Shown: piece after piece, positions 34,993-63,554 of the stretch | Layout of the letters: each line of letters begins with the position of its first letter | How positions within the stretch are numbered: position 1 is the first letter of the stretch | NCBI GenBank assembly: GCA_964369115.1 | Contig: CAYJED010000004.1 | Coordinates: 16,428 to 80,427, forward strand | Length of the DNA: 64,000 nucleotides | DNA from: an uncultured Candidatus Saccharibacteria bacterium | Lineage (GTDB): Bacteria > Patescibacteriota > Minisyncoccia > Phycocordibacterales > UBA5272 | Direction of reading: 5' to 3' | The notes under the pieces: model-generated | The model's input: the letters and a program-made list of their open reading frames with translations, nothing else | Database searches by the model: none | What the model was told of the DNA's origin: nothing | Program-made: the position numbers and the translations under genes

Positions 34993-35044
34993 CAAAAACA
35001 ATAACTCATTATCGTGGTAAAATACATATAAGTTATAGAACTTT

Positions 35045-36011: not shown

Positions 36012-36042
36012 TTCATCATAAAAATGATAAAATATAACTATA

Positions 36043-39325: not shown

Positions 39326-39377
39326 CAAAAACAATAACTCATTATCGTGGTAAAATACATATAAGTTATAGAACTTT

Positions 39378-45065: not shown

Positions 45066-45252
45066 TAAAGGTTTAGTTGTAGATCTTTTACTCCCCGCAT
45101 ATACAAAAATTCCGAGAAAGAATCTCGGAATTTTTGTATATGCGGTGTATGTGAGTTAAGTACCCACAGGTCTAGACCCTGTAAAGGTATTTTAGCATCC
45201 TTTTCTTACTCTAAAATATGTATGTGGGTCACTATTGTTTTTAGATAAAATA

Positions 45253-45924: not shown

Positions 45925-46074
45925 AAATTATGTATCTGGGTCACTCCGATACTTTTTTATTTTTGCGGTGTATGTGAGTTAAGTACCCACGGTCTTAAGT
46001 GTTATAAGGCTATTTTAGCACTTTTTCTCTATGGATGCTAAGGCAAGTGAGTCGGGTATTCCAAATGCCAACAA

Positions 46075-46830
46075 ATGCCAATTTTTGGTATAATACAAGG
46101 TATGACAGTCGGCGAATTAGTAGCACAAATAGCATCTCAGAACTCCTCTCCCACATCAAAGGATATGGCTTCATCTATTGAGAAAGTCAGAGAAATCTAT
46201 GAGAAGAATTTCGGACCCGAAGCTCCTTTTAGGAAAGCTTTAGAAAAGAATATGGAAATGGTAAATTCTGCCGTTGAATCTGTAAGACCTCAACTTGAGA
46301 CAATGGAAAGACTTCGGTCTTCAATTCCGCACATAACACTTCCAAGGATGATAGAAGAAGATGATTATTTGCTTCCCGAAATGATAAACCCAATTCGTGA
46401 AGTGAGAGTAACTAATATTCACGAACTAACTGGTTACAAATCTAACAGGCAAAGCGATGTTGTAGTCGCTGAATATCTACTCCCTAAAAATGCCACATGG
46501 GGAAGTTTGGATATTAAATTTTTAGATGGACATATTGTTCAAGTTTCTTACCCAAGAATGAAATCAATGAAATTTGATTACAAAGATATGGGATTTTTGA
46601 ATATAAAAAGAAATATACCAAATTTAAAATGGGAACTGTTTAGAGCAATCGCAGAAAATGGAGGTGCACTGACAAAAGATAATTTTGATAGAAGGTTTGG
46701 TAGAAATGTTAAATATGAACTCAATAAAGCTCTCAAAAAGTTTTTTGGTATGAATACTGATCCAATAACCCATTACACTAAATGGCATGGATACCGTACC
46801 AAATTCTCTCTCAGAGGTGAACGATATTAG
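46075..46830 (+). CDS. hypothetical protein
   Basis: 251-aa ORF; no family recognised. Confidence 0.35.
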   Translation: MPIFGIIQGMTVGELVAQIASQNSSPTSKDMASSIEKVREIYEKNFGPEAPFRKALEKNMEMVNSAVESVRPQLETMERLRSSIPHITLPRMIEEDDYLLPEMINPIREVRVTNIHELTGYKSNRQSDVVVAEYLLPKNATWGSLDIKFLDGHIVQVSYPRMKSMKFDYKDMGFLNIKRNIPNLKWELFRAIAENGGALTKDNFDRRFGRNVKYELNKALKKFFGMNTDPITHYTKWHGYRTKFSLRGERY

Positions 46831-46964
46831 AATTGTCATTTTATTTGGAATGACGCTTAAAAGACTTTTTACTATATAGGTAAAAAGTCTTTTATTTTAT
46901 AGATAATCTCATCAGTCAGTCATAGAAAGTAAAAAGAAATTGTCATTTTGTCATTCAATGACGA

Positions 46965-48305
46965 ATGTTAGTAGAAGAGTTTAATAAGATCCTCTTCTCT
47001 AAAAACCCTATGGCAAAAGAAAAGATCATATGGTCTGCAGTTGCTCGCAAACTGCAAGACCTGATCAAAAACGGATACAATCCGCGCAAGTTAAGCGAGA
47101 ACGAACGAAGAGACTTGGAAAGGTCAATAAAGGAATTCGGAACAGTTGTTCCAGTGATCCTCAATACTGGCTCCCGAACCAATATTATTATTGGTGGCGA
47201 ACAACGAGTCAAAGTATATGCCGATCTCGGCATAGCAGAGATTGAGTGCATGATACCCTCCCGAGAGCTAACGCTTGAGGAAGAGCGAGAACTCAATCTT
47301 CGTCTCAACAAGAACACGGGTTCGTGGAATGAAGAACTTCTCAAAGAGTTTGATATGAGCCTGCTTCTTGATATCGGTTTTGGAGATGAAGAATTACAAA
47401 ACCTATTTGATGATGTTGACCTTGTCGAGGATGACTTTAACCTTGAAAAAGCACTCAAGGAAACAATTAAGCCGAAAGTAAAATCAGGAGAAATTTGGGA
47501 GCTTGGGAAACATCGCCTACTTGTCGGCGATTCTACGGATCAGGAACTCGTGCAGAAGCTCATGAACGGAGACTTGGCGGACATTGTGTACTGCGACCCG
47601 CCATACAACATCGGCTTGGACTATTCCAAAGGAGTTGGAAACAAGGAAAAATACCAGGGTTCGTATTCAGGCAAGGACGACTCCAAGAAAGACAGCGACT
47701 ACATGGATTTCTTGGACAAGAGCATGGAAGTGGCAAAAAGTATCAGCAAGAAAAATGCCCACTTCTTCTATTGGTGCGATTCCTCATATCTTTGGATGGT
47801 TCAAACCTTGTATGCAAAACACAAGGTAGATTCCAAGCGTGTCTGCATGTGGATCAAGAACAACCAGAACCCTACTCACAAGATTGCCTTTAATAAAGTG
47901 TACGAGCCGTGTGTATACGGAACGCTCGGCAAGCCATATCTCAATACAGGAATGAATAACACCAACGAGATCCTTAACCAAGAAGTAACCACTGGCAATC
48001 AAGTACACGATGAAATCCTAGACATGATAGATATCTGGATTGAGAAAAGGGACAACGCTCAGTCGTACCAGCACCCTACGCAAAAACCCGTCACCTTAAA
48101 CGAGAAACCATTTAAGCGTTGCAGTTCTCCACTGCATATCATCTACAGCGGATTTGCAGGAAGCGGTAGTGACCTAATTGCCGCCGAAGAACTACATCGC
48201 GTATGGCGTGGCGTTGAGAAAGATCTCATCTTCGCAACCATTGTCATTGACCGATGGGAGAAATTTACCAACCTTAAGGCAAAGAAAATCTATGAAAATA
48301 AATAA
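46965..48305 (+). CDS. ParB-like nuclease domain fused to DNA methyltransferase (DPPY, N6-adenine/N4-cytosine class)
   Basis: N-terminal ParB-like region (...GYNPRKLSENERRDLERSIKEFG..), then the DPPY motif IV (IVYCDPPYN) and, C-terminal to it, an FAGSGS AdoMet-binding motif with HPTQKP. Confidence 0.75.
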   Translation: MLVEEFNKILFSKNPMAKEKIIWSAVARKLQDLIKNGYNPRKLSENERRDLERSIKEFGTVVPVILNTGSRTNIIIGGEQRVKVYADLGIAEIECMIPSRELTLEEERELNLRLNKNTGSWNEELLKEFDMSLLLDIGFGDEELQNLFDDVDLVEDDFNLEKALKETIKPKVKSGEIWELGKHRLLVGDSTDQELVQKLMNGDLADIVYCDPPYNIGLDYSKGVGNKEKYQGSYSGKDDSKKDSDYMDFLDKSMEVAKSISKKNAHFFYWCDSSYLWMVQTLYAKHKVDSKRVCMWIKNNQNPTHKIAFNKVYEPCVYGTLGKPYLNTGMNNTNEILNQEVTTGNQVHDEILDMIDIWIEKRDNAQSYQHPTQKPVTLNEKPFKRCSSPLHIIYSGFAGSGSDLIAAEELHRVWRGVEKDLIFATIVIDRWEKFTNLKAKKIYENK

Positions 48306-49041
48306 AAGAGACACATTCAAAGTTGGCGATCACATCATTGCTTGCGGTGATTCGCTGGACAAGGCATTTGTCGGCAAGGTCATAGGAAGCAATAAGATAC
48401 GAGCGGTCGTCACTGATCCTCCATACGGCGTTGCGTATGTTGAGAATAAGAAAGGCTTTCTGAAACTTAGCTCTGATGAAGATAAAGCTATAACCAACGA
48501 TCATATCCAAACCGAAGAAGAGTATGGGGAGTTTACCCGCAAATACTTGGGAGCGGTTATTCCATATCTTGAAGAATACAATGCGGTCTACATTTTCAAT
48601 GCCGATCCGATGTTCCCGAGCCTACGCTCTGGCATGAAGTCCGCTGGTTTCTACTACAGCCAAATGATAATTTGGCTCAAGAACCAGCCCGTCATGAGCC
48701 GAAAGGATTACTTGTCGATGTATGAACTCATTGCATACGGTTGGTTCGGTAAGCATCGAATGGAACGGTCTAAAGCGAGAAATGTTATCTACCACCCCCG
48801 ACCGACCAAATCCAGACTTCACCCGACACAAAAACCGATCGGACTGCTCAGAAAAATCATCCCTAACTCAACAAAGGTCGGTGACATTGTTTACGATCCA
48901 TTCCTTGGAAGTGGCTCAACCGCTATTGCCTGTGAACACTTAGGTCGAAAGTGTGTCGGTATCGAGCTTGATGAAGCATATGTAGAAACTACGCTCAAAA
49001 GACTCGAAAAGCTCACTGGCGAAACAGCGATAAAGCTCTAA
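48292..49041 (+). CDS. DNA methyltransferase (DPPY class), second subunit or paralog
   Basis: VVTDPPYG, HPTQKP and DPFLGSGST motifs. Overlaps the upstream methyltransferase by 14 nt. Confidence 0.75.
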   Translation: MKINKRDTFKVGDHIIACGDSLDKAFVGKVIGSNKIRAVVTDPPYGVAYVENKKGFLKLSSDEDKAITNDHIQTEEEYGEFTRKYLGAVIPYLEEYNAVYIFNADPMFPSLRSGMKSAGFYYSQMIIWLKNQPVMSRKDYLSMYELIAYGWFGKHRMERSKARNVIYHPRPTKSRLHPTQKPIGLLRKIIPNSTKVGDIVYDPFLGSGSTAIACEHLGRKCVGIELDEAYVETTLKRLEKLTGETAIKL

Positions 49042-49045
49042 TGAA

Positions 49046-49420
49046 ATGATGGAAGAAGACTTTTCAAAAGATCCATACAAGAAGCAAGTCTACGAGACTT
49101 ACGCTCTTTGGAAGTCTTTTCCTTCGTTTCTCAAGGGACAGCCAAGAGTAGCGCTTGAGAAATTTGGTATTGAGGAGGAATCAGCGTTTGAACTGCTTGC
49201 CATAAAGACTCAGGCTGAATTCTCGAAAACATACAAGGTCGATACCGGCACGCTCACGGATTGGAATAAGAGACTTGAGAAAGATGGACTAGTCAAAGAC
49301 ATCAACTCTTGGGCAAGAAAGCTGACTCCGAATGTTATCTTTGCGCTCTATAAGAACATCATCAAAAGCGGCAAAGCTCATGAAGTGAGAGCTTGGTTTG
49401 AGATTATAGAAAACAACTAG
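49046..49420 (+). CDS. hypothetical protein
   Basis: 124 aa, starting 4 nt after the methyltransferase stop. Possibly HTH-like. Confidence 0.35.
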   Translation: MMEEDFSKDPYKKQVYETYALWKSFPSFLKGQPRVALEKFGIEEESAFELLAIKTQAEFSKTYKVDTGTLTDWNKRLEKDGLVKDINSWARKLTPNVIFALYKNIIKSGKAHEVRAWFEIIENN

Positions 49421-49421
49421 T

Positions 49422-49622
49422 ATGAAAAAGATTAACTTAGAAGAAATAAATAGTATTCTCTCGGACACCATTCACAAGGTGTTGAATAAGGAAATACCAC
49501 TCAAGCAGGCATCGGTGATTGCTCGTCTTACAGCAACGCTTTCAAAGAACATTGCGAACACTGATCTTAAAGATCGGGTTGAATTCTTGGAAAGCATACT
49601 AAGAAAAAATAAAGACTCATGA
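49422..49622 (+). CDS. hypothetical small protein
   Basis: 66 aa, translationally coupled (ATGA overlap with the next gene). Confidence 0.3.
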   Translation: MKKINLEEINSILSDTIHKVLNKEIPLKQASVIARLTATLSKNIANTDLKDRVEFLESILRKNKDS

Positions 49623-51109
49623 AAAATCTCAGTAACATTTTAAGAAGATCATCAATAACGCCTTTTGAACGAGTGAAGACGCTTGTTCATAATGATATTC
49701 ACAAAGAAAAGACTGGCGAAAGCATGTTGTCTGACTCCGAAGTGTATGTATTGATAGATAGCTGGAACCCAAGAGTAATCGAGGCAAAAGAATATAACAG
49801 ATATGTGGGTATTGTTCGCTTAGAAAATACCATGAAGATGGATGCTCAAATGTTTTTAAACAGAGCGGAAATAGCACTGTTGCGAAATCAAAGAGTGCTT
49901 GATAGTTTCGTTTTCAATGCAACCTTGCTTAAGGCGTTAGCGGAGCAAGAATTTCTCAAGGATATCCCGAGAGAAGAAAGCATGCAGTTTCTTACTGAGC
50001 ATACTTATTTTGAGTATCAAAAACTGCTTCATATTTTCACCTTCAACAATCTACCGAAGGAAATTCAAAATGATTTATTCCTGCTCGATGAATATGCTAA
50101 CTGCGACAAACGATATTTAGAGGACGAGGTATTTCTTTATGAGAGATTTAAGGACGGTACTGAGTTAAGCAAACAAGACAAAGATCTCATCATTGGTCGT
50201 ATCTACTCTGGTATGTACTACGAGGGAGCAAAGAAGATAAAGAAAAGTACATCAGAGAAAGATGGATTTTTGATCCACCACTTCTTTGGTGAATTACCCG
50301 TAGAAGATATCTTCAAAAAGATGGCATACGATGCACATATTCAATACGACGATAGTGATTTTGAAAGCAAAGTCTTATCAGGACTAGAGGAATATGTAAA
50401 AAACAAAAATATAAGCATGGAGTCTTTGGTTAAGGATGCAATATCTCGTTGGCTAGACGAAGGGTTGTTCGTGAATGACTACTCACCGATTTTTATGAGC
50501 GAGCGTTTCAATACCTGGAATGGAAACACTAAAAAGAATCATAAGGAGCTATTCACAGCTTGGTACACGGAACTGAAAAAGTCCGAGCAGGTTTTTCAAA
50601 GTTTGTTTGATGCAAAGAAGCTAGAAAAAGGATCTGTCGAGATAGAGATACTGGGAATGAAGAAAACGCTGGAGATTGTAACCGGCACTAGTTTGCTCGC
50701 TTGCAAAGAGAATCTGCTCTTTATTTCTGAATATAAGCGACAGGTTGAAATGCTTTTACCAGCTGCAAATATGCATCTCTTTGTGAAGAAGCATGCGTAT
50801 CCAGTTAAAAGCTACAAAACACTTTGCGAGTTTAAGAACCTAGCTGAAAGATTTTCCATTCAGTTTGATATTGATATAACCGATCAATACGATCATTTCA
50901 TTAATTCATACAAAGAAGAAGTTGCTCTTTTAAACCACAGTATGAGTAGGCTACTAGATACGGCAACCGAATATCTCTACACGGAAAAATCTTCGCATTA
51001 CATTCCCGATATTAATGAGGGTGGTTTCTTGTTTGATACCGAGAAGGATGACGGTGTAGCTGAAATTGCTAATTTATATTCTGAGGAGTTTAAAAAGCTA
51101 GGAATGTAA
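49619..51109 (+). CDS. hypothetical protein (496 aa), last gene of methylase operon
   Basis: Long ORF with no recognised motif, coupled to the upstream genes. Confidence 0.4.
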   Translation: MKNLSNILRRSSITPFERVKTLVHNDIHKEKTGESMLSDSEVYVLIDSWNPRVIEAKEYNRYVGIVRLENTMKMDAQMFLNRAEIALLRNQRVLDSFVFNATLLKALAEQEFLKDIPREESMQFLTEHTYFEYQKLLHIFTFNNLPKEIQNDLFLLDEYANCDKRYLEDEVFLYERFKDGTELSKQDKDLIIGRIYSGMYYEGAKKIKKSTSEKDGFLIHHFFGELPVEDIFKKMAYDAHIQYDDSDFESKVLSGLEEYVKNKNISMESLVKDAISRWLDEGLFVNDYSPIFMSERFNTWNGNTKKNHKELFTAWYTELKKSEQVFQSLFDAKKLEKGSVEIEILGMKKTLEIVTGTSLLACKENLLFISEYKRQVEMLLPAANMHLFVKKHAYPVKSYKTLCEFKNLAERFSIQFDIDITDQYDHFINSYKEEVALLNHSMSRLLDTATEYLYTEKSSHYIPDINEGGFLFDTEKDDGVAEIANLYSEEFKKLGM

Positions 51110-51219
51110 ATTTTTTATTTTCCTTTACCACCTTTCTGAACAGGCTGACCTTGGCTTGGTGTTGGTCGTGGCGCTGGCTGGGGTTTTGGCGCTGGTTTAG
51201 AGTTATTATTTGCCATATA

Positions 51220-51669
51220 TTAGATAAAAATCATTAGCAATATACCGACTAGGAATAATGTAAGTGCTTGTTTGTAATCCTTGTTCTTGCCTTCCAAAGC
51301 TTTTGAATTATCATCAAACGCTTTTTGATAATCTGAGAGTAATTGATCTAAAAGGGTTTCAGTTTTCATTGAACGATAATCTTTTGGATCATTATAAAAA
51401 TCCACTACGCCCGTATTATATGTTTTAACTTTCAATGTTTGCCAAAGGAAATATCCAGAAAAGAGCAGAATCATTATCGGTATTACTTGAAGAGCATGGA
51501 TATGATGAAAACTTTGTATGTAGAAAATGAGAATAGCTCCCTCTAGTGGAATCATTACTCCTGCTTTTGCATCAAGTCCGTTATCGGCATTGAGTAAATA
51601 ATCAACCTTGCTTCTTGTTGCATTTACAAGTATTTCTAGTGATTTGGTTTTGTCTTCATGCTCGGTCAT
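51220..51669 (-). CDS. small membrane protein co-transcribed downstream of Type III res
   Basis: 149 aa with two central TM helices and one C-terminal TM helix. Its start overlaps the res stop by 4 nt. Confidence 0.4.
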   Translation of the reverse strand: MTEHEDKTKSLEILVNATRSKVDYLLNADNGLDAKAGVMIPLEGAILIFYIQSFHHIHALQVIPIMILLFSGYFLWQTLKVKTYNTGVVDFYNDPKDYRSMKTETLLDQLLSDYQKAFDDNSKALEGKNKDYKQALTLFLVGILLMIFI

Positions 51670-53960
51670 ATAACATCCTTTAAATTATCCCAACCGTTCA
51701 AGCTCGGAGAGTAAGTATATTTCTTTCCTGAATTGAGTTTCCAACCATTCGGGCCGTCTTGAACAGCAATACCACCAGCTATATTCTTTTTACCTTTGAG
51801 CCATTCTTGCAGCGCCTCGGCTTTGTATTTAGTATCGGCAATTTCAGCAGTAGATCCTTTCTTGGTGTCTACGATCCAAACCTTGTCTTTTGTCTTAAAA
51901 ATCCAATCAGGATAAAAGAGTTTTTCTTTATTCTCGTCAGGGTTGTAGTAAGCAAGCGAGAAATATTCGCTTCCTGAATCACCGTTTTTGTACCACCATT
52001 CAATAGCTTTGTGCTCTTCTAGGAATTTAATGAATTCCTTTTCGTTATCTTCGCCTTTGTAATCTCTCTCGATATAAAACGGAGCCATAGCCGATTTCTT
52101 CACACTCATTTCTTCGTACTGGTCGGTATAGAAAAGACTCTCACGAGGAATCTCAATTTGCTCCGTTCGTTTTGCGCGCTCAGATTTGCGATTTACTTCT
52201 TGTTCACGGATTGGACGATAGACTGCAAGAGCATCACCGATCACAGGAGCGAGAACGCTTGCTTGGTTCAACAGGTCGTTAACGATAATGTTGTAAATAA
52301 CATGGCGTGTTTCTCCTGTATTGTTCAATAACCAAACATTAAGAGCGGTCTTGAGCTTTCCCCATGAACGCTCTGGTGCAAATTTCTTGTTTTCGTCAGT
52401 CTGCTTTGCAATAAGGTTAAAGCAGAATAAGTTGTATAGGCGTTCAAGATCATACTGGGACATTTCTTGATCGTGGCTTCCACCTTCTGCCAGTAGCTCT
52501 TTTGTGAAATTATCATAATCGTCAATTTCCACATTAACGATTAGTCCATTCGTAACTGTTACAGATATATCTAAACCTTTGTCTTTCAGTCGCTTGAGTA
52601 CCTTAGTTTCTTTTTCATTGATTCCAAAATACTTATCTGCTACTTTTTGAAATACGTCTTGGAAAGAATCACCAAGGTCGTTATAGTCGGTACGACTCAT
52701 GAATACGGAATCAACCATAATAGGCTTAACAGATTGCTTGCGGTAACTTCCGTAAATGGCAGGTCGGTTTTGTTCTGTAGATTTAGAGTAACCCGTGATG
52801 ACTTCGTTTCTTTTGTAGTTGGTATAAAGATAACCTAGATTTAATTCTGGCTTTGGAAAATGAAAACCTAGAGGCATACGAAGAATACGGCCAACAGTCT
52901 GAATAGCAAAAGTTGGGTTTTTAATCTCACGGAACATCACAAGCACACTTGCGCGAGGACAATCCCAGCCTGTCGCGGCGGCTTGTTTAAAAAGAAGAAA
53001 TGATACTGGCGAATTGTTTCTCTCGATGTCTTCAAGGTTGATCTTATCTTCGGAAAGCCACACCGCAATCTCATGCTCAAAAACACCTTTTGATTTAAGA
53101 AAGTCAGTTATCAAAGCTTGTTTTGTTACTCCACCTGACTCCTTACTTGCTTTGTCGTCATTTGGAAGCTGTACCAATACGAGAGGGTTCACTTCAACAC
53201 CAATTTCTTTGTAATACGCCACAAGCTCGGCTCGTTTGTTATATGCGAGAGTCAAAAGAATATCGTCCTGATCCATTCCCGCAAATTCTTTTTTAGCCAA
53301 ATCTTCTTCTGTCTGAAAAATAATCTTTTCTTTGATAAGCCCCTCACGCACAACATCGGCACGATTAACGTCTACAGTCACGCCTACTGTTTGCGGGGTA
53401 GCAGAAACACCGATAATAATTCGGGGCTTAATAACATTCTGGATAAGGTCGCTTGCAAGCACCGTGGACGAGGCGATATGTTCCTCGTCGATGATAAGTA
53501 CCACTTCGCGACCTTGCGAGTGTGTAGCTTCAAGATATTCGTCAAAAGTAGTATTCAATTCTCCCTCAGTGCGGAGCTTACGGTTTGTTTGCGCGCGAGA
53601 CACCAACTTCTGCCAGTTTATGAAAAAGACACCGCTTCGAGGGATGCAACCGTCACGGAGATCATTCAAATCAAGGAGCGTATTTTCGCTTGCACCGCCG
53701 TAATATGAAAAAAGTTTGTCTTTGGATTGCATCGCAAGCGAGTCTGAGTTTGTGATCCACAGAAATCCAACGTCAGCATTCTGGAAGCGTGGATCAGAAA
53801 CAATATCGCGGAGAAACTGCGCCATCATAATTGTCTTACCCGATCCAGTTGGAGATTTAAAAGTCAGGTTTAAATTACGATCGCCAAGTTTCCAAAGCGT
53901 CAGGAATTTCTCCTTGAGTTGTGAGATTGCAGTTTCTTGGAATGGTTTAAGTGCGAACAT
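51666..53960 (-). CDS. res: Type III restriction enzyme, Res subunit (SF2 helicase-nuclease)
   Basis: KPFQETAI, Walker A SPTGSGKT, the DEEH box, SAT motif, and helicase motif VI-like QTVGRILR. Confidence 0.8.
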   Translation of the reverse strand: MFALKPFQETAISQLKEKFLTLWKLGDRNLNLTFKSPTGSGKTIMMAQFLRDIVSDPRFQNADVGFLWITNSDSLAMQSKDKLFSYYGGASENTLLDLNDLRDGCIPRSGVFFINWQKLVSRAQTNRKLRTEGELNTTFDEYLEATHSQGREVVLIIDEEHIASSTVLASDLIQNVIKPRIIIGVSATPQTVGVTVDVNRADVVREGLIKEKIIFQTEEDLAKKEFAGMDQDDILLTLAYNKRAELVAYYKEIGVEVNPLVLVQLPNDDKASKESGGVTKQALITDFLKSKGVFEHEIAVWLSEDKINLEDIERNNSPVSFLLFKQAAATGWDCPRASVLVMFREIKNPTFAIQTVGRILRMPLGFHFPKPELNLGYLYTNYKRNEVITGYSKSTEQNRPAIYGSYRKQSVKPIMVDSVFMSRTDYNDLGDSFQDVFQKVADKYFGINEKETKVLKRLKDKGLDISVTVTNGLIVNVEIDDYDNFTKELLAEGGSHDQEMSQYDLERLYNLFCFNLIAKQTDENKKFAPERSWGKLKTALNVWLLNNTGETRHVIYNIIVNDLLNQASVLAPVIGDALAVYRPIREQEVNRKSERAKRTEQIEIPRESLFYTDQYEEMSVKKSAMAPFYIERDYKGEDNEKEFIKFLEEHKAIEWWYKNGDSGSEYFSLAYYNPDENKEKLFYPDWIFKTKDKVWIVDTKKGSTAEIADTKYKAEALQEWLKGKKNIAGGIAVQDGPNGWKLNSGKKYTYSPSLNGWDNLKDVI

Positions 53961-53963
53961 AGA

Positions 53964-55700
53964 TTAAATGCGGTTAATTTCTTTATAAACTTCAAGGATC
54001 GGTTCGGGAATATCTTCGACACGGATAGTCCTCGTAGAATAATCATTCTTATACTCATTCTTACCCCAACCAAAAACATACAGCGTTGTTGGCTGATTTT
54101 TCTTCTCAAGAATCTTTATAATTTCTTTAAGTTTTGTTTTATCTTCCGTGAAATAGATAGCGGTTAACTTTCCGTTACCTTCAAAAATTTGCCACCACTC
54201 ATTTTTATCGACTTCATTTGAGGTGTTTTCTCGGAGTGCGATCATCTCTCCAGCCTGATAAGTAATTTTAATTTTTGCCTCATCAGAAATACGATGTAAC
54301 TTATCTACGTTTACCATATCGGTTTTAAAGTAAGATAAATTCCCACTAAGACCCTCGACTTTCACTCCTTTTCTGTTTTTATATCCTTTAATAACGCGTT
54401 TCAATCGCTCATATGTAACTTCTTCACAGATCTTATTTTCATTATTCGTACAAAGAATAAACTTACGATTACCACCATCTTGTTTATTGAGTTCAAGAAC
54501 GGCATGACCTGTAGTACCAGAGCCAGCGAAAAAATCGAGAATAACAGCATCTCTTTTGTCACTCATAACTCTTAAACTATCCATTACTGCGTAGAGAGAT
54601 TTTGGATAAGAAAATATTTGAAGTTCTGCGAAAATATCTTTTAATAGATTTGTTCCGTAAGCAGTCGAAGAATATTCTTTCTTATCCCACCAAGTCATAG
54701 GCAAAATTCCATCTTCGTTCATTCGTCCCTTTACATAAATCTGAAGTTTGCTTTTTTGTATACGAGATTGAAATTCATCCTGTTCATTCATGAATCTTTC
54801 AATACCCCAACGCCAACGTCTTTGCTTGCCGTCATCATCAATTGGATAGATTATTTCCTCTCCCTTTTTAGGCTTTTCTAATAATTGGTAATCTTCTAAA
54901 TTGTCGTCCCATGTTAATTTAGGCAACCTAATTGAATCTTTGGTTGCAAAGATCGGGTAGTACATTTTTGGAGACTCTTCTCGCATACTTCCGGGCTTGC
55001 GGAAGTTAACCCATTCAAAAGCACCATTCGCGTCTTTTTCATCATATCGGTCAATTTGAGACTGGTTTCTATCAAGTCTGGACACAAAAGCGGATTCTGT
55101 TTTTCCAAAAAAGACGGCATATTCGTGGGTAATAGATATTCCTTTTGTTGTAGATCTGCCCGCTGGATTGTTTCTGATAGGCACAGTTCCTAAATGATTG
55201 AATTCTCCAAAAATTTCTTCCATCAAGAGAATCAGTCTTGAAATTTCATAATCATCAATCGTGACGCAAATTATGCCATTTTCTTTGAGCAAGTTTTTAG
55301 CCAAACGCAACCTCTTTTCCATAAAAGAGATCCACTTGCTATGGCGAAAATTGTCGTTCTTATCTACATAGTCATTGTTGTATCGCCAGTCTGTTGCGCC
55401 GGTATTGTATGGCGGATCCGCGTAAATAACATCGACTGCGCCGCGATGCGTATAGTTCAAAACAGAAAGCGAGTGGTAATTATCTCCCTCGATTAGAATG
55501 TTCGTCGGGAGTGAATTATCAGAAACTAACTTTCTACTTTTAACTTCTTTAAGAAGAGGAATATTCGTCTCGCATTGCAAAACGACATCCTCTGGTTTAT
55601 CTTCCCAGACGAGTCCGTATTTTTTGCGATTCTTTAATTTTTTTATTTCAGATTGTAAATCTGAAATTTGAGCGCGTAGCTCTTTTTCTGTTTGAGACAT
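53964..55700 (-). CDS. mod: Type III restriction-modification system Mod methyltransferase
   Basis: IYADPPYNTG (motif IV) and FFAGSGTTGHA (motif I). 578 aa, immediately upstream of res. Confidence 0.85.
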   Translation of the reverse strand: MSQTEKELRAQISDLQSEIKKLKNRKKYGLVWEDKPEDVVLQCETNIPLLKEVKSRKLVSDNSLPTNILIEGDNYHSLSVLNYTHRGAVDVIYADPPYNTGATDWRYNNDYVDKNDNFRHSKWISFMEKRLRLAKNLLKENGIICVTIDDYEISRLILLMEEIFGEFNHLGTVPIRNNPAGRSTTKGISITHEYAVFFGKTESAFVSRLDRNQSQIDRYDEKDANGAFEWVNFRKPGSMREESPKMYYPIFATKDSIRLPKLTWDDNLEDYQLLEKPKKGEEIIYPIDDDGKQRRWRWGIERFMNEQDEFQSRIQKSKLQIYVKGRMNEDGILPMTWWDKKEYSSTAYGTNLLKDIFAELQIFSYPKSLYAVMDSLRVMSDKRDAVILDFFAGSGTTGHAVLELNKQDGGNRKFILCTNNENKICEEVTYERLKRVIKGYKNRKGVKVEGLSGNLSYFKTDMVNVDKLHRISDEAKIKITYQAGEMIALRENTSNEVDKNEWWQIFEGNGKLTAIYFTEDKTKLKEIIKILEKKNQPTTLYVFGWGKNEYKNDYSTRTIRVEDIPEPILEVYKEINRI

Positions 55701-56004
55701 AGGGGTACAGTTCTATGTCTCGGCTATCCATATTTGGTTTGTATAGAAACGGCAAAGAGGGACAGCCGAGCCTGTACCCCATAATGGTGCTACCCCGAAA
55801 GGTTCCTGTTATGGAACTCGGACTGCCCCTCTTTGCCTATAACAGGTAAGAGAAAACAGTCCTTTCGGGGACGAAGCACTAAATATATAAACACTATGGG
55901 GTACAAATGAACTCTAACATAAAAACACCTCTAAATAAAGGCTTATTTAGAGGTGTTTACCAACAGTCTGGACTTTGCGAGTGCTTCGCGTCATTTAATA
56001 GTAT

Positions 56005-56328
56005 GTGGACGATATTGAGGCCGTTATCAAGGCCAGCCAGCATTTCAAATATGAGGAATCCGAGGTAAGTTATGCTTTCAACAAAGCCTCTGACTTACCG
56101 GAATCTAAGTCGAATCTGAAGCGAGCCATAAAGGAGCGCATTCAGCTTTTGTGCGCTTCATATATTTCACTGGCTTCTTTCTTGCCTGATGAGGATGCGG
56201 AATATTTGCTCGGCCTTCATGGAGAGCAGAAGAAAAAGCGATCAATTAAAATCATGATGCGAATGATGAAAGAAATGGATAAGCTCGAAAAAGAGATCCG
56301 TAATTTTGATCCGTTTTCACCTCTATAA
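56005..56328 (+). CDS. hypothetical protein (GTG start; duplicate at 59374..59697)
   Basis: 107-aa ORF downstream of a 15-bp-stem hairpin. No clear RBS. Confidence 0.25.
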   Translation: MDDIEAVIKASQHFKYEESEVSYAFNKASDLPESKSNLKRAIKERIQLLCASYISLASFLPDEDAEYLLGLHGEQKKKRSIKIMMRMMKEMDKLEKEIRNFDPFSPL

Positions 56329-56419
56329 AAAATTGAGCGGACTCGCTTCGCGAGTAAATGCCAAAGGGTCAAAGAACCCAAGAGTCAAAGAATCAGAAAA
56401 ATACAAAGAGACAACAGGT

Positions 56420-58261
56420 CTAAGATTCAGACTTGCGGAGACGGAACACGAACTCAACGTCCGGAATCCACGCGCTGTCGGGCGACGCCCAACTGCGGCG
56501 CAGCCACAAACCGCCAACGTCGCGTTCGAGGCGGAAGACGTACGGGCTGCCGCCGGAGTCAGCGATTTGCTTCATACCAATACGTACCCATTCATTGAGA
56601 GGTTGATCTTTGTATTTAAGACGATAGTTAGGACCAGTATCAGGAGGACACAACTCCAAGCCAAGCGTTTGTGCGCGTTCGTAAATTTGGTCAGTGGTAG
56701 CGCTTGTCTTGAATCCGAGGTCAGCGACAGTAAGACGGATGAGTGTTGCTTCTTCGCGAGTCTTTCCGGGAATGAAGTCGCGATTTTTCATCATAGACTT
56801 TGCGTAATCAGAAATATTTATGTGAGCCGCTTCCATTTCAGCAATTAACTGTTCAGTAGTCTTGCCTCCGATCTCTACGCTTTCTCTGCGGATTTTCTTT
56901 TCAGGGAATGAAGTGTAGACATGTTCAAGACCTTCCGGCAATTTTTGGAATATGCCTGGTTCAAGCTGTCCGACATAGGCTTTGGTGTCTTTTGTGATCT
57001 GACTTGGCACGTGAGCAATATCTTCTTTTGTACACTCAAAAATAACAAGCATGTCTTCCTCGGTGTTTCGCCCTTTGCGTAGTTCAGCGATACGAGGGTC
57101 TGTCTGATAACCGAACCCTTCAATTGATGAATTGATTTCGTAGAGGAATACTAAATCGTCTTTGGTAAAGGGTTCATCCTGTTCACGCTTCTGGTCGAGA
57201 GCGGTCAGTATTTTCATATCTCCGCTTTTCTTGCGGTACGCATCAGCCTCACCACCAAAGTCTTGGAGTTTTGCATCAAGTGCTTCCTGCATAATTGGCT
57301 CTACGCCCTGATGCGGAAGAATACCTCTCACTTCGCCGATTCTATTGTCGCCCTCCATGCGGATCGCAAGACGAGGTTGGGTTGGTTCGCCGTTTGAATC
57401 ATTCGTGTAATAAACATAAAAGTCGCCATTCTCTATTTGTGTTTCTGCTGTCGATTTACCGGCAGTACACCAACCAGTTCCTTTTCCTTCAAGTGACTCA
57501 AATAATTGTTCGGCATCGCCGCTCTGTCCTTGTTGATATTTTTTCCATTCACCTTTAACTTCCTCGCGGTTCTCCATTGAAGCGGCGAGAGATTTTGAAA
57601 TGAGTTCGGCGTATAAGCTCGGAAACTTTTGAGAAAAGGCTTCGCGGATTTCAGGCTCTTTGAGATTCTTATTGTCTTCTTTTACCTTGAGATAAATATC
57701 AGCAATCTGTGCCAACGGCTCGCGGTAGATATCGGGGTATGGTGCAACAGTACTATCGGTACGCTTTTTGAACTCGCCACGCTCCTTGTCGAACTGTGAA
57801 AGTTTAGTGATATTTTTCCAAACGAAGTACTTGAACCACGCTGGGTACATAGCATCGTCTGAAGTAAGGTACTCCATCCACGCATCAAGCGATGCCCGCT
57901 GATCTTCAATAGCAACATCCATCATTTGTTCACGGACATTGTCAGGAATTTCCTCTACTGCTTGTCCGCGCTCGCGGGCGATGCGTTTCTGTAATTCAAA
58001 ATATGATTCAGGAAAATTCTCCTTCTTTATGATGAACGCATCATATATTTTATCGCGAAACATTTCGAGATTGCGTTCGCGTTTCTTTTCGTCAGGGTTA
58101 AGAAAAACATTCTCCAAGCGATCCATGTATGCCTCGATACGCTCGGCAGGATCGTTCGGCATTTTTTCGCCAGTGTGTCGCTCCTCTCGCACAACTGCCC
58201 GATTTACCTCGGGAGAGGTTTGGAGTTCTGGGCTTTTAAGATGGAGCGGATGTTTTTCCAT
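56420..58261 (-). CDS. DGR target protein with C-terminal CLec-like variable region (copy 1)
   Basis: 613 aa. The C-terminus SGGSPYVFRLERDVGGLWLRRSWASPDSAWIPDVEFVFRLRK corresponds codon-for-codon to the Asn-rich TR. There is no signal peptide. Confidence 0.8.
   Translation of the reverse strand: MEKHPLHLKSPELQTSPEVNRAVVREERHTGEKMPNDPAERIEAYMDRLENVFLNPDEKKRERNLEMFRDKIYDAFIIKKENFPESYFELQKRIARERGQAVEEIPDNVREQMMDVAIEDQRASLDAWMEYLTSDDAMYPAWFKYFVWKNITKLSQFDKERGEFKKRTDSTVAPYPDIYREPLAQIADIYLKVKEDNKNLKEPEIREAFSQKFPSLYAELISKSLAASMENREEVKGEWKKYQQGQSGDAEQLFESLEGKGTGWCTAGKSTAETQIENGDFYVYYTNDSNGEPTQPRLAIRMEGDNRIGEVRGILPHQGVEPIMQEALDAKLQDFGGEADAYRKKSGDMKILTALDQKREQDEPFTKDDLVFLYEINSSIEGFGYQTDPRIAELRKGRNTEEDMLVIFECTKEDIAHVPSQITKDTKAYVGQLEPGIFQKLPEGLEHVYTSFPEKKIRRESVEIGGKTTEQLIAEMEAAHINISDYAKSMMKNRDFIPGKTREEATLIRLTVADLGFKTSATTDQIYERAQTLGLELCPPDTGPNYRLKYKDQPLNEWVRIGMKQIADSGGSPYVFRLERDVGGLWLRRSWASPDSAWIPDVEFVFRLRKSES
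56432..56564 (-). repeat. DGR variable repeat VR (copy 1)
   Basis: The reverse complement matches TR 58554..58686 at 110/133 positions; all 23 mismatches are opposite TR adenines. Confidence 0.85.
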
Positions 58262-58553
58262 ATATGGTTCGCATTATAGCATAAATTACTGCGAAATAAA
58301 GAGGTTTTTGGTATACTATTTTCAGATTGGTTTCATTGAACGGCTACGGTTTTTCAAGACCAATTTACTTCATGTAGATTGAGAGCGCGAACGGTTACGG
58401 CTTTTCGCGGAGGATGTGCATTGAGGTCTTTAAAAAGAAAAAACTTGGTGCGACGCGCTGGTTGATTTTCGATCACGCATAACGATACAGCACGGCTTCT
58501 GGCATATCATGTGCGCTTAAGTCGGCGGTGAGATGGATGGCGTGCCGCACAAA

Positions 58554-58686
58554 CGCTGACTCCGACGGCAACCCGAACGTCTTCAACCTCGAACGCAACG
58601 ATGACGGTTTGTGGCTGAACAACAATTGGGCGAAACCCGACAACACGTGGAATCCGGACAATAAGTTCGTGTTCCGTCTCCGAAAC
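58554..58686 (+). repeat. DGR template repeat TR (copy 1)
   Basis: Non-coding AAC-rich repeat (translating as ...SDGNPNVFNLERNDDGLWLNNNWAKPDNTWNPDNKFVFRLRN), followed by a hairpin ccgcgac..gtcgcgg. Confidence 0.85.
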
Positions 58687-58710
58687 TATTTTCTTTTCCG
58701 CGACCTCATG

Positions 58711-59121
58711 TTACATGTCGCGGTTTTTCTTTTCAGGGTTGGCAAGATTTTTCTTCCAACCGCCAAACATCTTGCCAACTTCTTCGAGTTTCAATGCAAC
58801 GCTCTCACAGTGAGCGTTTGAAATAAGCTTGCCCTCCCATGCAACAGAAACAAGAAACTTTAGTGTGTCTAACACCAAAATACACTCATTAATTTTCTCC
58901 TCTTTCTTATCTTTTTCTATAAAATAGGCAATGTATGACAATTCAAGCAGATCGAGAAACTTGTTCTCAATTCGTGAGCCAATTGTATAGCGTGCCCCTT
59001 TAGCAATATGCGGAACAATATTAACCCAAATCAAATAGCCCTCTTTAATCCTGTTGAGAATCGAGGCGTTGTTGGTGTGCGAAAGTCGGGGGGGGGGGGG
59101 GAGATTAGTAGCTCGGTTCAT
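58711..59121 (-). CDS. avd: Avd-like four-helix-bundle accessory protein (copy 1)
   Basis: About 130 aa with HIAKGARYTIGSRIENKFLDLLELSYIA...LEEVGKMFGGWKK, resembling the Avd/23S-rRNA-IVS four-helix-bundle family. A poly-C run (14 nt) encodes PPPP near the N-terminus. Confidence 0.6.
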   Translation of the reverse strand: MNRATNLPPPPRLSHTNNASILNRIKEGYLIWVNIVPHIAKGARYTIGSRIENKFLDLLELSYIAYFIEKDKKEEKINECILVLDTLKFLVSVAWEGKLISNAHCESVALKLEEVGKMFGGWKKNLANPEKKNRDM

Positions 59122-59211
59122 ATCTACAATAATATCATTTCTGTCGAAAACTTACTCGTCGCATGGCGAGAATTCCTCCATGGAAAACGGACTGCCCCTC
59201 TTTGCCTATAA
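59008..59211 (+). pseudogene. truncated 5' fragment of the DGR reverse transcriptase (copy 1 of duplication)
   Basis: Identical to the first 60 codons of the 62377.. ORF (...ENLLVAWREFLHGKR), then interrupted by the duplication junction. Confidence 0.6.
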
Positions 59212-59373
59212 CAGGTAAGAGAAAACAGTCCTTTCGGGGACGAAGCACTAAATATATAAACACTATGGGGTACAAATGAACTCTAACATAAAAACACCTC
59301 TAAATAAAGGCTTATTTAGAGGTGTTTACCAACAGTCTGGACTTTGCGAGTGCTTCGCGTCATTTAATAGTAT

Positions 59374-59697
59374 GTGGACGATATTGAGGCCGTTATCAAG
59401 GCCAGCCAGCATTTCAAATATGAGGAATCCGAGGTAAGTTATGCTTTCAACAAAGCCTCTGACTTACCGGAATCTAAGTCGAATCTGAAGCGAGCCATAA
59501 AGGAGCGCATTCAGCTTTTGTGCGCTTCATATATTTCACTGGCTTCTTTCTTGCCTGATGAGGATGCGGAATATTTGCTCGGCCTTCATGGAGAGCAGAA
59601 GAAAAAGCGATCAATTAAAATCATGATGCGAATGATGAAAGAAATGGATAAGCTCGAAAAAGAGATCCGTAATTTTGATCCGTTTTCACCTCTATAA
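59374..59697 (+). CDS. hypothetical protein (duplicate of 56005..56328)
   Basis: Exact duplicate. Confidence 0.25.
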   Translation: MDDIEAVIKASQHFKYEESEVSYAFNKASDLPESKSNLKRAIKERIQLLCASYISLASFLPDEDAEYLLGLHGEQKKKRSIKIMMRMMKEMDKLEKEIRNFDPFSPL

Positions 59698-59788
59698 AAA
59701 ATTGAGCGGACTCGCTTCGCGAGTAAATGCCAAAGGGTCAAAGAACCCAAGAGTCAAAGAATCAGAAAAATACAAAGAGACAACAGGT

Positions 59789-61630: not shown

Positions 61631-61922
61631 ATATGGTTCGCATTATAGCATAAATTACTGCGAAATAAAGAGGTTTTTGGTATACTATTTTCAGATTGGT
61701 TTCATTGAACGGCTACGGTTTTTCAAGACCAATTTACTTCATGTAGATTGAGAGCGCGAACGGTTACGGCTTTTCGCGGAGGATGTGCATTGAGGTCTTT
61801 AAAAAGAAAAAACTTGGTGCGACGCGCTGGTTGATTTTCGATCACGCATAACGATACAGCACGGCTTCTGGCATATCATGTGCGCTTAAGTCGGCGGTGA
61901 GATGGATGGCGTGCCGCACAAA

Positions 61923-62055
61923 CGCTGACTCCGACGGCAACCCGAACGTCTTCAACCTCGAACGCAACGATGACGGTTTGTGGCTGAACAACAATTGGGC
62001 GAAACCCGACAACACGTGGAATCCGGACAATAAGTTCGTGTTCCGTCTCCGAAAC
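61923..62055 (+). repeat. DGR template repeat TR (copy 2)
   Basis: Offset of 3369 from TR copy 1. Confidence 0.85.
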
Positions 62056-62079
62056 TATTTTCTTTTCCGCGACCTCATG

Positions 62080-63480: not shown

Positions 63481-63554
63481 TTTTTGAGTTACCAACACCT
63501 ACCACTCGGGACGCTCTGGACTCCTAGGGCGAGTTGCGTCATCAATGTAGCTGT

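What the first reader, a model, noticed from the sequence alone, without database searches (positions are those of the whole stretch)
46965..51109. Five-gene co-directional operon: ParB-fused DNA methyltransferase + second methyltransferase + three unknown proteins (124, 66, 496 aa)
The genes are tightly coupled, with overlaps or gaps of 4 nt or less. The first is a ParB-like nuclease domain fused to a DPPY-type N6A/N4C methyltransferase; the second is another methyltransferase of the same class. No cognate restriction endonuclease is recognisable, and the three downstream genes (49046..51109) have no detectable motifs. The operon converges on a Type III RM system and sits between two serine-recombinase-associated elements, which is a typical defence-island context. 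The unknown trio could be the effector part of a methylation-linked defence system not yet described, or it could be phage-derived.
Basis: partly seen in the sequence, partly recalled or inferred. Interest (0 to 1): 0.6.

Follow-up and report, generated by a model that had tools for sequence, protein, structure and literature searches.

The report
Conserved core of a phage-derived island
The five genes are real and always occur together, but they look less like a stand-alone defence system than like the fixed core of a previously undescribed, phage-derived mobile island of tiny uncultured bacteria (Paceibacteria) that carries swappable defence genes, and two of its proteins match nothing known.

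Summary
Five co-directional, tightly packed genes encode a ParB-fused DPPY methyltransferase, a second DPPY methyltransferase, and proteins of 124, 66 and 496 aa.

The same five genes, in the same order, occur in every related locus examined: more than 45 Patescibacteria contigs, including 28 GTDB species. They are always followed, after 0.1-9 kb of variable cargo, by a conserved large serine recombinase. Wherever the upstream flank was examined, with few exceptions, they are preceded by a ~110-nt conserved non-coding 'left end' (LE). Two loci share 95% identical DNA starting 9 nt before LE but have unrelated flanks, so the unit moves.

In the window, the Type III RM and the DGR are cargo.

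The closest relatives of the methyltransferase pair (53-59% identity) lie in tailed phages directly upstream of TerS-TerL-portal. Sister islands with the same LE and recombinase carry TerS+TerL where this island has the trio. The 124-aa protein links weakly and transitively to TerS DNA-binding domains.

The 496-aa protein models confidently (pLDDT 90) as an all-alpha fold with no PDB or viral match. All five genes are under purifying selection.

Best reading: the core of a satellite-like integrative element. A novel methylation-linked defence system is not excluded. The function of the 66- and 496-aa proteins is unresolved.

The parts
45131..45206 (+). Second, upstream copy of the conserved left-end (LE) sequence. 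A single unrelated 223-aa gene (45253-45924, minus strand) lies between the two copies.
   Evidence: It is 78-80% identical to the copy at 45954-46020. L004 has the same two-copy arrangement.
45954..46081 (+). LE: conserved non-coding left end of the element (type B core GCGGTGTATGTGAGTTAAGTACCC ... TAAGG ... GTGAGTCGGG), ending in the direct repeat CAAATGCCAA x2 (46062-46081).
   Evidence: LE aligns with the sequence upstream of the cassette in 21 other loci, with 25 invariant columns. L012/L013 DNA identity begins 9 nt before its GCGG. The exact 24-mer of type A is present in 41 metagenome contigs. There is no RNA consensus fold and no Rfam hit.
46075..46830 (+). Variable upstream gene, class c4 (251-aa ORF; the conserved start MTVGEL is at 46102). 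It is a separate transcription unit and a candidate regulator.
   Evidence: It is 40-55% identical to the gene at the same position in 15+ loci and is replaced by unrelated c7 or c15 classes in others. There is no family hit. The regulator role is inference from the co-occurring palindromes.
46835..46962 (+). Control region: palindrome GTCAT-N10-ATGAC (46835-46854), terminator hairpin (46858-46894) and operator-like TTGTCATTTTGTCATTCAATGAC (46940-46962).
Evidence: The layout is conserved in all c4-class loci, with compensatory changes in the hairpin stem, and is absent in c7 and c15 classes.
46965..48305 (+). ParB-N-domain::beta-class N6A/N4C DNA methyltransferase (446-aa ORF; probably 431 aa starting at 47010).
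   Evidence: Family hits and motifs are. It is 68-89% identical across loci, with dN/dS 0.04-0.16. It is 53-55% identical to genes in tailed phages.
48292..49041 (+). Second beta-class DNA methyltransferase (249 aa), with no ParB domain.
   Evidence: PF01555 scores 116 bits, with DPPY and FLGSG motifs. It is 72-87% identical across loci, with dN/dS 0.03-0.12. The phage neighbours of the ParB-MTase homologs are 55-59% identical to it.
49046..49420 (+). p124: helix-turn-helix DNA-binding protein, distantly similar to the N-terminal domain of terminase small subunits.
49422..49622 (+). p66: small basic helical protein of unknown role.
   Evidence: It is present at 46-78% identity in every cassette. 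It has no family hit, alone or concatenated to p124.
49619..51109 (+). p496: acidic all-alpha protein of unknown function and apparently novel fold.
51115..55700 (-). Cargo 1: 33-aa Pro-rich ORF, PycTM-like 149-aa membrane protein, Type III Res (764 aa) and Type III Mod (578 aa).
   Evidence: Annotation is. The same block is 69-76% identical in L008/L016. Res+Mod also sit at the same position in L034, and more distant Type III versions in L041 and L044. The block is absent from most other loci.
55811..63480 (.). Cargo 2: diversity-generating retroelement, with the target gene plus bAvd in two 3369-bp copies and one reverse transcriptase (62377-63480).
   Evidence: The repeats are and the bAvd Pfam hit. 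TR 58551-58685 differs from VR 56433-56567 at 24 positions, all at TR adenines. The RT is 44-50% identical to RVT_1 genes in L006, L008 and L014.
63534..64000 (+). Start (155 aa) of the large serine recombinase that closes the element; it is cut by the window end.
   Evidence: It is 78-92% identical to the 440-458-aa Resolvase+Recombinase+Zn_ribbon_recom genes found downstream of the cassette in other loci. L006/L030 homology stops at its stop codon.

Best explanation
The five genes are the invariant core ('left arm') of a family of roughly 8-19-kb integrative elements of Paceibacteria (Patescibacteria/CPR). Each element runs from a ~110-nt conserved left-end sequence (LE) to a large serine recombinase gene. 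A hotspot between the 496-aa gene and the recombinase holds interchangeable cargo; in the window this is a Type III RM with a membrane protein, plus a DGR.

The core is of tailed-phage origin. The ParB-methyltransferase and its partner methyltransferase are the phage 'methylate before packaging' pair that sits directly upstream of the terminase genes. In this element the terminase position is occupied by p124 (a TerS-like HTH DNA-binding protein), p66 and p496.

Proposed working (inferred, not shown):
- The recombinase integrates and excises the element at or next to LE.
- A variable upstream regulator (here the c4 gene with its GTCAT...ATGAC palindromes) gates transcription of the five-gene operon.
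- The two orphan methyltransferases mark element and host DNA so that it survives restriction, including after transfer.
- p124 binds element DNA and, together with p66 and p496, promotes propagation of the excised element. The most likely route is exploiting the packaging machinery of a helper phage, as phage satellites do.

Shown: conserved synteny, mobility of the whole unit, phage affinity of the methyltransferase pair, positional equivalence of the trio with TerS/TerL in sister elements, and purifying selection on all genes. Inferred: every biochemical role of p124, p66 and p496, and the role of LE.
For: Synteny:
- All five genes occur in the same order in every locus with enough sequence. 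This includes relatives whose p496 is only 25-29% identical, and a 616-aa variant.
- The recombinase lies downstream on the same strand in every locus whose flank reaches far enough, and is directly adjacent in L025 and nearly so in L104.

Mobility:
- L012 and L013 share 94.9% DNA identity over 13 kb, beginning 9 nt before LE, with unrelated left flanks. L006/L030 identity ends at the recombinase stop codon.
- For L013 against L017, the flanking RecG is 63% identical with 35% shared codons. The methyltransferases are 94-98% identical with 78-79% shared codons.

Cargo varies between loci: DGR, Type III RM, SNase and large unknown genes.

Phage origin:
- ParB-MTase at 53-55% and MT2 at 55-59% identity lie adjacent in IMG/VR phages. 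They are followed there by TerS (phrog_4044, 1e-5), TerL (4e-26), portal (1e-120), HNH and capsid genes.
- Streptococcus phage Javan159 has the same layout.
- The literature reports ParB-CTPase::N6N4-MTase fusions as enriched in prophages (10.1101/2025.10.10.680097).

Sister elements:
- Elements with the same LE, and with a large serine recombinase where the flank reaches, carry ParB-MTase'+MT2' followed by TerL or TerS+TerL. L063 and L088 hit phrog_38 at 3e-77 and 7e-83. L106 has a TerS and a TerL 59% identical to that of L088.
- L088 and L096 share cargo genes at 69-97% identity with the trio-type L020.

Recombinase clade co-varies with LE type.

All genes have dN/dS <=0.21.

L044 has an ImmR/ImmA-type repressor-protease pair between LE and the cassette.
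Against: - No excised circle, empty integration site or att core was recovered, so recombinase-mediated mobility is inferred from boundaries only.
- No inverted copy of LE was found at the recombinase end.
- p124's TerS link is transitive and covers only about 63 residues. Direct hhalign against the phage TerS of L048 and L049 found nothing. Concatenating p124 and p66 gave no TerS hit.
- p496 has no ATPase or nuclease fold, so it cannot replace TerL enzymatically.
- No helper phage was identified. IMG/VR holds no p496 relative detectable by that scan; one cassette-bearing contig is listed there as viral, but it has no structural genes.
- The TerS/TerL-type sister loci are short, so complete prophages cannot be excluded for all of them.
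Confidence: 0.55

Rival explanations
1. The five genes form a new methylation-linked anti-phage defence system. The two methyltransferases mark self DNA. p124, p66 and p496 sense or attack unmethylated invading DNA. The island merely carries the system.
For: - Strict five-gene co-occurrence and operon structure.
- No cognate known restriction enzyme.
- The cassette sits beside other defence genes.
- p496 evolves 3-5 times faster than its neighbours, as arms-race proteins often do.
- PADLOC 2023 would not contain an undescribed system.
Against: - The cassette is never seen apart from LE and the recombinase, whereas the bona fide defence systems beside it come and go.
- The methyltransferases are among the most conserved genes (72-98%, dN/dS ~0.05). 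This is unlike the rapidly switching specificities of RM and BREX methylases.
- Their nearest relatives are phage packaging-region genes.
- There is no nuclease, ATPase, helicase, HEPN or other effector fold in the trio.
- Sister elements put a terminase at the same position.
Confidence: 0.17
2. The element is an autonomous integrative plasmid-like element rather than a satellite. p496 is a novel replication initiator, with p124 and p66 as its DNA-binding and accessory partners. The element spreads by natural transformation or vesicles, not in phage capsids.
For: - No helper phage was found.
- p124-p66-p496 share one history that differs from the methyltransferase genes. In L012/L013, dS is 0.09-0.10 for the trio genes against 0.44-0.53 for the methyltransferases. 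This is the pattern seen for Rep/ori modules.
- p496 contains helix plus beta-hairpin elements that could be winged helices.
- Element length varies widely, about 2-15 kb from LE to the recombinase, so no strict capsid limit is evident.
Against: - No iterons or AT-rich origin-like repeats were found in or next to the trio.
- p496 is acidic (pI 5.3), which is unusual for an initiator.
- There is no similarity to any Rep, primase or helicase.
- Sister elements carry terminase genes, which points to capsid transfer.
Confidence: 0.15
3. The locus is a decaying prophage remnant or a fixed chromosomal epigenetic module with no mobility of its own.
For: - The methyltransferase pair is phage-like.
- There are no structural genes.
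- Some genomes share neighbours: RecG upstream in L004, L013 and L017, and cluster 18 downstream in L017, L019, L025 and L036.
Against: - All five genes and the recombinase are under purifying selection (dN/dS 0.0-0.21) across lineages whose housekeeping genes are only ~60% identical.
- Identical architecture is kept down to 25% identity of p496.
- Near-identical elements occur in unrelated flanks.
- Synonymous divergence in the element is lower than in the host flank.
- The family was detected in only 28 of 185,579 species representatives, i.e. it is patchy.
Confidence: 0.08

Closest known systems
Phage ParB-domain::N6/N4 methyltransferase plus second methyltransferase, placed just upstream of terS-terL (e.g. 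Streptococcus phage Javan159; IMG/VR contigs L046-L050)
   Same: - Same two-gene order and the same domain fusion.
- 53-59% identity to the IMG/VR phage genes and ~30% to Javan159.
- Same location immediately before the packaging position.
   Different: - In phages the next genes are TerS, TerL, portal and capsid.
- Here they are p124, p66 and p496, followed by cargo and a recombinase, with no structural genes.
Phage satellites (PICI/SaPI, PICMI, P4-like), including their defence-gene hotspots
   Same: - Small integrative element with its own integrase.
- No capsid or tail genes.
- Retains packaging-type DNA-binding genes; sister elements retain TerS/TerL.
- Has a variable hotspot loaded with defence systems next to the integrase.
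   Different: - The integrase is a large serine recombinase.
- No identifiable repressor, primase or capsid-remodelling homologs.
- The helper phage, induction and packaging are all unobserved.
- The host phylum has no described satellites in the literature searched.
Large-serine-recombinase mobile elements (phage-type serine integrases, Tn4451/Tn5397-type, SCCmec ccr elements)
   Same: - Recombinase with Resolvase + Recombinase + Zn-ribbon domains at one extremity.
- Discrete ends and variable cargo.
   Different: - The accessory core is unrelated: there is no Mob or relaxase, and no cch or polA-type genes.
- The att sites are not defined here.
Type II restriction-modification systems and orphan methyltransferases (CcrM, Dam-like)
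   Same: - Beta-class DPPY methyltransferases.
- PADLOC labels both as Type II MTase.
- Weak similarity to CcrM models.
   Different: - No restriction enzyme partner.
- Scores lie far below the CcrM equivalog cut-off (49-85 bits against 830).
- The genes are tied to a mobile element rather than to the cell cycle.

Membership tests
Beta-class N6-adenine/N4-cytosine DNA methyltransferases (PF01555) | Pfam score above the gathering threshold. | tested here: met
   65.7 and 116.1 bits against a cut-off of 26.7.
Beta-class N6-adenine/N4-cytosine DNA methyltransferases (PF01555) | Catalytic motif IV (D/S/N)PP(Y/F) placed before the SAM-binding motif I FxGxG. | tested here: met
   DPPY at 211 with FAGSG at 397, and DPPY at 42 with FLGSG at 204.
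Beta-class N6-adenine/N4-cytosine DNA methyltransferases (PF01555) | Methyl transfer to a defined DNA motif. | not testable with these tools
   This needs SMRT or ONT methylome data, or expression of the genes.
ParB-CTPase-fold::methyltransferase fusions of phages | N-terminal ParB/Srx fold with the box II GxxR motif, fused to an N6_N4 methyltransferase. | tested here: met
   phrog_620 at 1.8e-26 over residues 25-165, and phrog_498 at 2.4e-84 over the full length. ParB_N scores 25.5 bits, 0.8 below the cut-off. GEQR is at residue 78.
ParB-CTPase-fold::methyltransferase fusions of phages | Nucleotide (CTP/ATP) binding by the ParB fold. | not testable with these tools
   The paper read found that binding cannot be predicted from sequence.
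Restriction-modification system | A cognate restriction endonuclease encoded with the methyltransferase. | tested here: not met
   There is no nuclease family or fold in p124, p66 or p496. The adjacent Type III Res has its own Mod.
Known anti-phage defence systems (PADLOC-DB 2.0) | At least the signature proteins match a system model. | tested here: not met
   Only generic MTase_II models hit, and the trio has no hits.
Terminase small subunit (TerS) | N-terminal HTH DNA-binding domain homologous to TerS families. | tested here: inconclusive
   p124 alone gives phrog_2538 at E=0.16, and one family member gives phrog_24579 at 0.005. The bridging L092 131-aa ORF matches the p124 profile at 7.6e-9 and three TerS PHROGs at 1e-5 to 2e-3. 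hhalign against the phage TerS of L048 and L049 was negative.
Terminase small subunit (TerS) | Oligomerisation and TerL-binding regions, encoded next to a TerL. | tested here: not met
   There is no TerL in any trio-type cassette. The p124+p66 concatenation gave no TerS hit.
Large-serine-recombinase integrative element | Recombinase with Resolvase, Recombinase and Zn_ribbon_recom domains at an end of the element. | tested here: met
   Homologous loci carry all three domains. The window holds only the first 155 aa, which are 78-92% identical to those genes.
Large-serine-recombinase integrative element | Discrete ends, with the same element in unrelated flanks. | tested here: met
   Shown by L012/L013 and L006/L030.
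Large-serine-recombinase integrative element | Identified attL/attR, an empty attB or a circular junction. | tested here: inconclusive
   LE lies at the boundary and co-varies with the recombinase clade. Several loci have a recombinase 3' end abutting LE: L036, L044, L066, L090 and L097. No empty site and no symmetric partner arm was found.
Phage satellite | Integrase present, virion structural genes absent, packaging-related gene(s) retained. | tested here: inconclusive
   The first two features are met. The third rests on the weak p124-TerS link and on sister elements that carry TerS/TerL.
Phage satellite | Helper-phage-dependent induction and packaging. | not testable with these tools
   No helper phage was identified. 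The type-A LE 24-mer is absent from IMG/VR, and the type-B 24-mer is found once, in a sister element.

The most novel reading that the evidence does not exclude
These are the first phage-satellite-type elements of the Candidate Phyla Radiation. In them the p124-p66-p496 trio is a new, non-enzymatic module that replaced TerS-TerL and redirects a helper phage's packaging motor onto the island. p496 would be a new protein fold that binds terminase or portal, and the ultra-conserved LE would be the shared recombination and packaging signal.
Probability: 0.22. Interest if true: 0.8.

Novelty: new variant of a known kind. Interest (0 to 1): 0.62.

Why it matters
Patescibacteria make up a large share of bacterial diversity, yet almost nothing is known about their mobile elements, about how they exchange genes, or about how their many DGRs and defence systems travel.

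This locus defines a recognisable, widespread element with clear markers: a 24-nt left end, a five-gene core and a serine recombinase. Those markers can be used to find cargo hotspots in CPR genomes.

It also provides two strongly conserved proteins with no known relatives, one of them a confident new fold, as concrete targets.

If the satellite reading is right, it extends phage-satellite biology to an entire superphylum. If the defence reading is right, it adds a new methylation-coupled immune mechanism.

The compact recombinase and its ultra-conserved site may also interest genome engineers.

Tried and rejected
- LE as a structured RNA: RNAalifold on 22 and on 53 sequences gave no consensus structure on either strand, and Rfam found only hairpin noise. 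Rejected.
- p124+p66 as a split terminase small subunit: the concatenated proteins from four lineages gave no TerS hits. Not supported.
- Direct profile comparison of p124 with the TerS of related phages was negative.
- c4/c7/c15 as OmpR-type winged-helix regulators, which was my reading of their C-terminal motifs: no Trans_reg_C or other hit even at E<=10. Dropped.
- p496 as terminase, portal, Rep, nuclease or HEPN/HD: there are no sequence hits and no structural hits. The afdb50 library was unavailable.
- Trio relatives in the phages that carry the related methyltransferase pair: none found.
- Iterons or origin-like repeats in or beside the trio: none found.
- GGTACC, which is invariant inside type-A LE, as a depleted methylation target: 5 observed against 4.9 expected. 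No signal.
- An inverted copy of LE at the recombinase end: none found.
- Literature searches for a described CPR element of this kind found nothing relevant.

Full report
**1. The observation**

The five ORFs exist as described: 46965-48305, 48292-49041, 49046-49420, 49422-49622 and 49619-51109, all on the + strand.
- The junctions are a 14-nt overlap, a 4-nt gap, a 1-nt gap and a 4-nt overlap.
- Gene 1 combines a ParB N-terminal fold with a PF01555 methyltransferase (DPPY at 211, FAGSG at 397). The ParB evidence is phrog_620 at 1.8e-26, a GEQR box II, and Pfam ParB_N at 25.5 bits, just under its cut-off.
- Gene 2 is a 249-aa PF01555 enzyme (DPPY at 42, FLGSG at 204). Both genes have the beta-class motif order.
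- Homologs have no ATG at the position of 46965 and are called at 431 aa, so the real start of gene 1 is probably 47010.
- The 124-, 66- and 496-aa products have no significant match in Pfam, PHROGs, PADLOC or NCBIfam.
- A strong terminator hairpin (46858-46894) precedes the unit, and no + strand terminator lies inside it.
- Downstream and convergent lie a PycTM-like 149-aa gene plus Type III Res and Mod.
- The window's proteins are deposited as hypothetical proteins of a Candidatus Pacebacteria MAG.

**2. Conserved co-occurrence**

- p496 has 121 homologs (39-97% identity, nearly all 476-515 aa, all unnamed or 'hypothetical', and Patescibacteria where named).
- p124 has 203 homologs (62-98% identity).
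- A profile search of 1.84 billion representatives finds only 209 relatives of p496.
- In every locus fetched through p496, through p124, through a GTDB scan (28 species, one copy each) or through the left-end DNA motif, the order is the same: ParB-MTase, MT2, p124, p66, p496.
- This holds down to cassettes whose p496 is 25-29% identical, and to a 616-aa variant.

**3. The cassette is one arm of a larger mobile unit**

- A ~440-aa large serine recombinase (Resolvase + Recombinase + Zn_ribbon_recom) lies downstream on the same strand in all loci whose flank reaches far enough. It is 0.1 kb away in L025, up to ~9 kb away elsewhere, and separated by a single small gene in L104.
- The partial ORF at the window's end (63534-64000) is 78-92% identical to these recombinases.
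- Upstream of the cassette lies one of three unrelated gene classes (c4, c7 or c15). In nearly all loci this gene is preceded by the same ~110-nt non-coding sequence, LE.
- L012 and L013 share 94.9% identical DNA over 13 kb, beginning 9 nt before LE, and their left flanks are unrelated. L006 and L030 lose similarity at the recombinase stop codon.
- Between L013 and L017 the flanking RecG is 63% identical with 35% shared codons at identical residues. The methyltransferases are 94-98% identical with 78-79% shared codons. The element is therefore younger than the host split.
- The genes between p496 and the recombinase differ from locus to locus: DGR, Type III RM, SNase and large unknown genes.
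- In the window, the Type III RM (51220-55700) and the DGR (55811-63480) are this cargo. The DGR's TR and VR differ only at TR adenines, 24 of 24 positions.

**4. Phage affinity**

- The trio has no relatives in GenBank phages, in plasmids, or in IMG/VR as scanned. The single exception is one IMG/VR contig that is simply another copy of the island.
- The methyltransferase pair does have phage relatives. IMG/VR contigs L046-L050 carry ParB-MTase (53-55% identical). In L048-L050, MT2 (56-59%) lies directly after it.
- In L047-L050 the packaging genes follow: a TerS-type HTH protein (L048; phrog_4044, 1e-5), TerL (4e-26) and portal (1e-120), with HNH, protease/capsid (L048) and major capsid (L049) genes beyond.
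- Streptococcus phage Javan159 shows the same layout at ~30% identity.
- A recent survey reports ParB-CTPase::N6N4-MTase fusions as enriched in prophages, with unknown function.

**5. Sister elements**

- Scanning metagenome contigs for the exact first 24 nt of type-A LE returned 41 loci.
- About fifteen of them are trio-type islands.
- Others carry the same LE followed by a diverged ParB-MTase and MT2, and then a terminase large subunit (L063 and L088; phrog_38 at 3e-77 and 7e-83).
- L106 has a TerS plus a TerL 59% identical to that of L088. In L106 and L088 the next genes are minus-strand cargo, not portal or capsid genes.
- L088 and L096 share cargo genes at 69-97% identity with the trio-type island L020.
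- L092 and L079 have recombinases 95-98% identical to those of trio-type islands but different left arms.
- The trio is therefore one of several interchangeable modules at the terminase position of an LE-recombinase element family.

**6. What the trio proteins are**

p124:
- It is a small helical protein with a helix-turn-helix at about residues 55-76. A profile hit to an Xre-type protein supports this.
- Its family profile matches a 131-aa ORF of L092 at E=7.6e-9 over residues 54-117. That ORF hits three TerS PHROGs at 1e-5 to 2e-3.
- p124 itself reaches only E=0.16 against the same family, over the same region.
- I read this as a distant TerS-type DNA-binding domain. It is not proof of packaging function.
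- Direct hhalign against phage TerS failed.

p66:
- It has no hits, alone or concatenated to p124.

p496:
- It models confidently (pLDDT 90.3, pTM 0.81) as an all-alpha protein with two small hairpins.
- It is acidic (pI 5.3).
- It is not a terminase, portal, nuclease or ATPase by any test available here.

**7. Selection and mosaicism**

- dN/dS is 0.04-0.16 for ParB-MTase, 0.03-0.12 for MT2, 0-0.05 for p124, 0.10-0.21 for p496 and 0.02-0.03 for the recombinase. All of these are functional genes. p496 is the least constrained of them.
- Within one pair of loci, dS differs several-fold between the methyltransferase genes and p124-p496. In L012/L013 it is 0.44-0.53 against 0.09-0.10.
- Identity rankings for ParB-MTase and for p124/p66/p496 are discordant across loci.
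- The cassette therefore recombines between a methyltransferase half and a trio half.

**8. LE and regulation**

- LE has 25 invariant positions across 22 loci.
- It comes in two co-varying types. These correlate with recombinase clades: type-A recombinases are 85-100% identical to each other and 66-76% identical to type-B recombinases.
- It shows no RNA consensus structure.
- In several loci it abuts the 3' end of another recombinase gene, which suggests tandem or circle-like junctions.
- I infer that it is the recombinase's site, with or without a promoter-operator. A packaging signal is also possible.
- In c4-class islands, GTCAT...ATGAC palindromes flank a terminator whose stem shows compensatory changes between loci. 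They sit immediately before the methyltransferase gene. This suggests that c4 regulates the operon.
- L044 has an ImmR/ImmA-like pair at that place.

**9. Verdict**

- The context is better described as follows: the cassette is the backbone of a phage-derived, recombinase-bounded island, and the defence genes beside it are its cargo.
- The most likely mechanism is propagation of the island: methylation for protection from restriction, DNA recognition by p124, and an unknown p66/p496 activity at the terminase position, probably exploitation of a helper phage. I give this 0.55.
- A new methylation-linked defence system (0.17) and a plasmid-like replication module (0.15) remain open.
- No description of this element turned up in the literature searches.

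Noticed in passing
window 33386-42051 and tRNA-Glu 42051-42125(-): There is a perfect tandem duplication (2 x 4333 bp). Each copy carries 157-, 171- and 229-aa ORFs and a 595/571-aa large serine recombinase of a different family from the island's. The duplication ends exactly at a tRNA-Glu gene. It is either a second integrative element in tandem or an assembly artefact.
   Followed up: partly
window 55811-62549: A 3369-bp segment is present twice at 99-100% identity. It holds a 107-aa ORF, the 613-aa DGR target and bAvd. TR is at 58551-58685 and VR at 56433-56567, and they differ at 24 positions, all at TR adenines. TR and VR are in inverted orientation.
   Followed up: partly
window 31810-33202: The gene at 32306-33202(-) is 74-78% identical to the 280-305-aa gene that directly follows p496 in other islands. 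Here it lies 14 kb upstream and inverted. It has its own VR-like (32315-32443) and TR-like (31810-31938) pair, in which only 18 of 26 differences are at adenines. This suggests a rearranged or decaying DGR target.
   Followed up: partly
window 45131-45206 and 45954-46081; also L004 2889-2978 and 3945-4056: Two copies of the left-end sequence bracket a single unrelated gene. In the window this is a 223-aa gene on the minus strand; in L004 it is a TehB-like methyltransferase. It looks as if single genes are inserted at LE.
   Followed up: no
window 51115-51669(-): A PycTM-like 149-aa membrane protein (PADLOC E=1.9e-5) overlaps the start of Type III Res by 4 nt. It is followed by a 33-aa proline-rich ORF. 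The same membrane gene travels with the Type III RM in L008/L016 but not in L034.
   Followed up: no
L006 16793-17073, L013 11958-12249, L017 12424-12713, L026 12584-12863 (not in the window): A ~280-nt block, apparently lying between the called ORFs, is 93-94% identical between otherwise different cargo regions of several islands. Its function is unknown.
   Followed up: no
L063, L088, L096, L106, L092, L079: These are sister elements with the same LE; most also show a serine recombinase within the sequence available. Their left arms differ: ParB-MTase'+MT2'+TerL, ParB-MTase+TerS, or a helicase-containing arm. Some share cargo genes at 69-97% identity with trio-type islands.
   Followed up: partly
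L044 5233-6821: An HTH_3 repressor plus M78 peptidase pair (ImmR/ImmA type) sits between LE and the cassette. A CBASS-type CD_NTase_C gene and a 565-aa resolvase lie just upstream.
   Followed up: no
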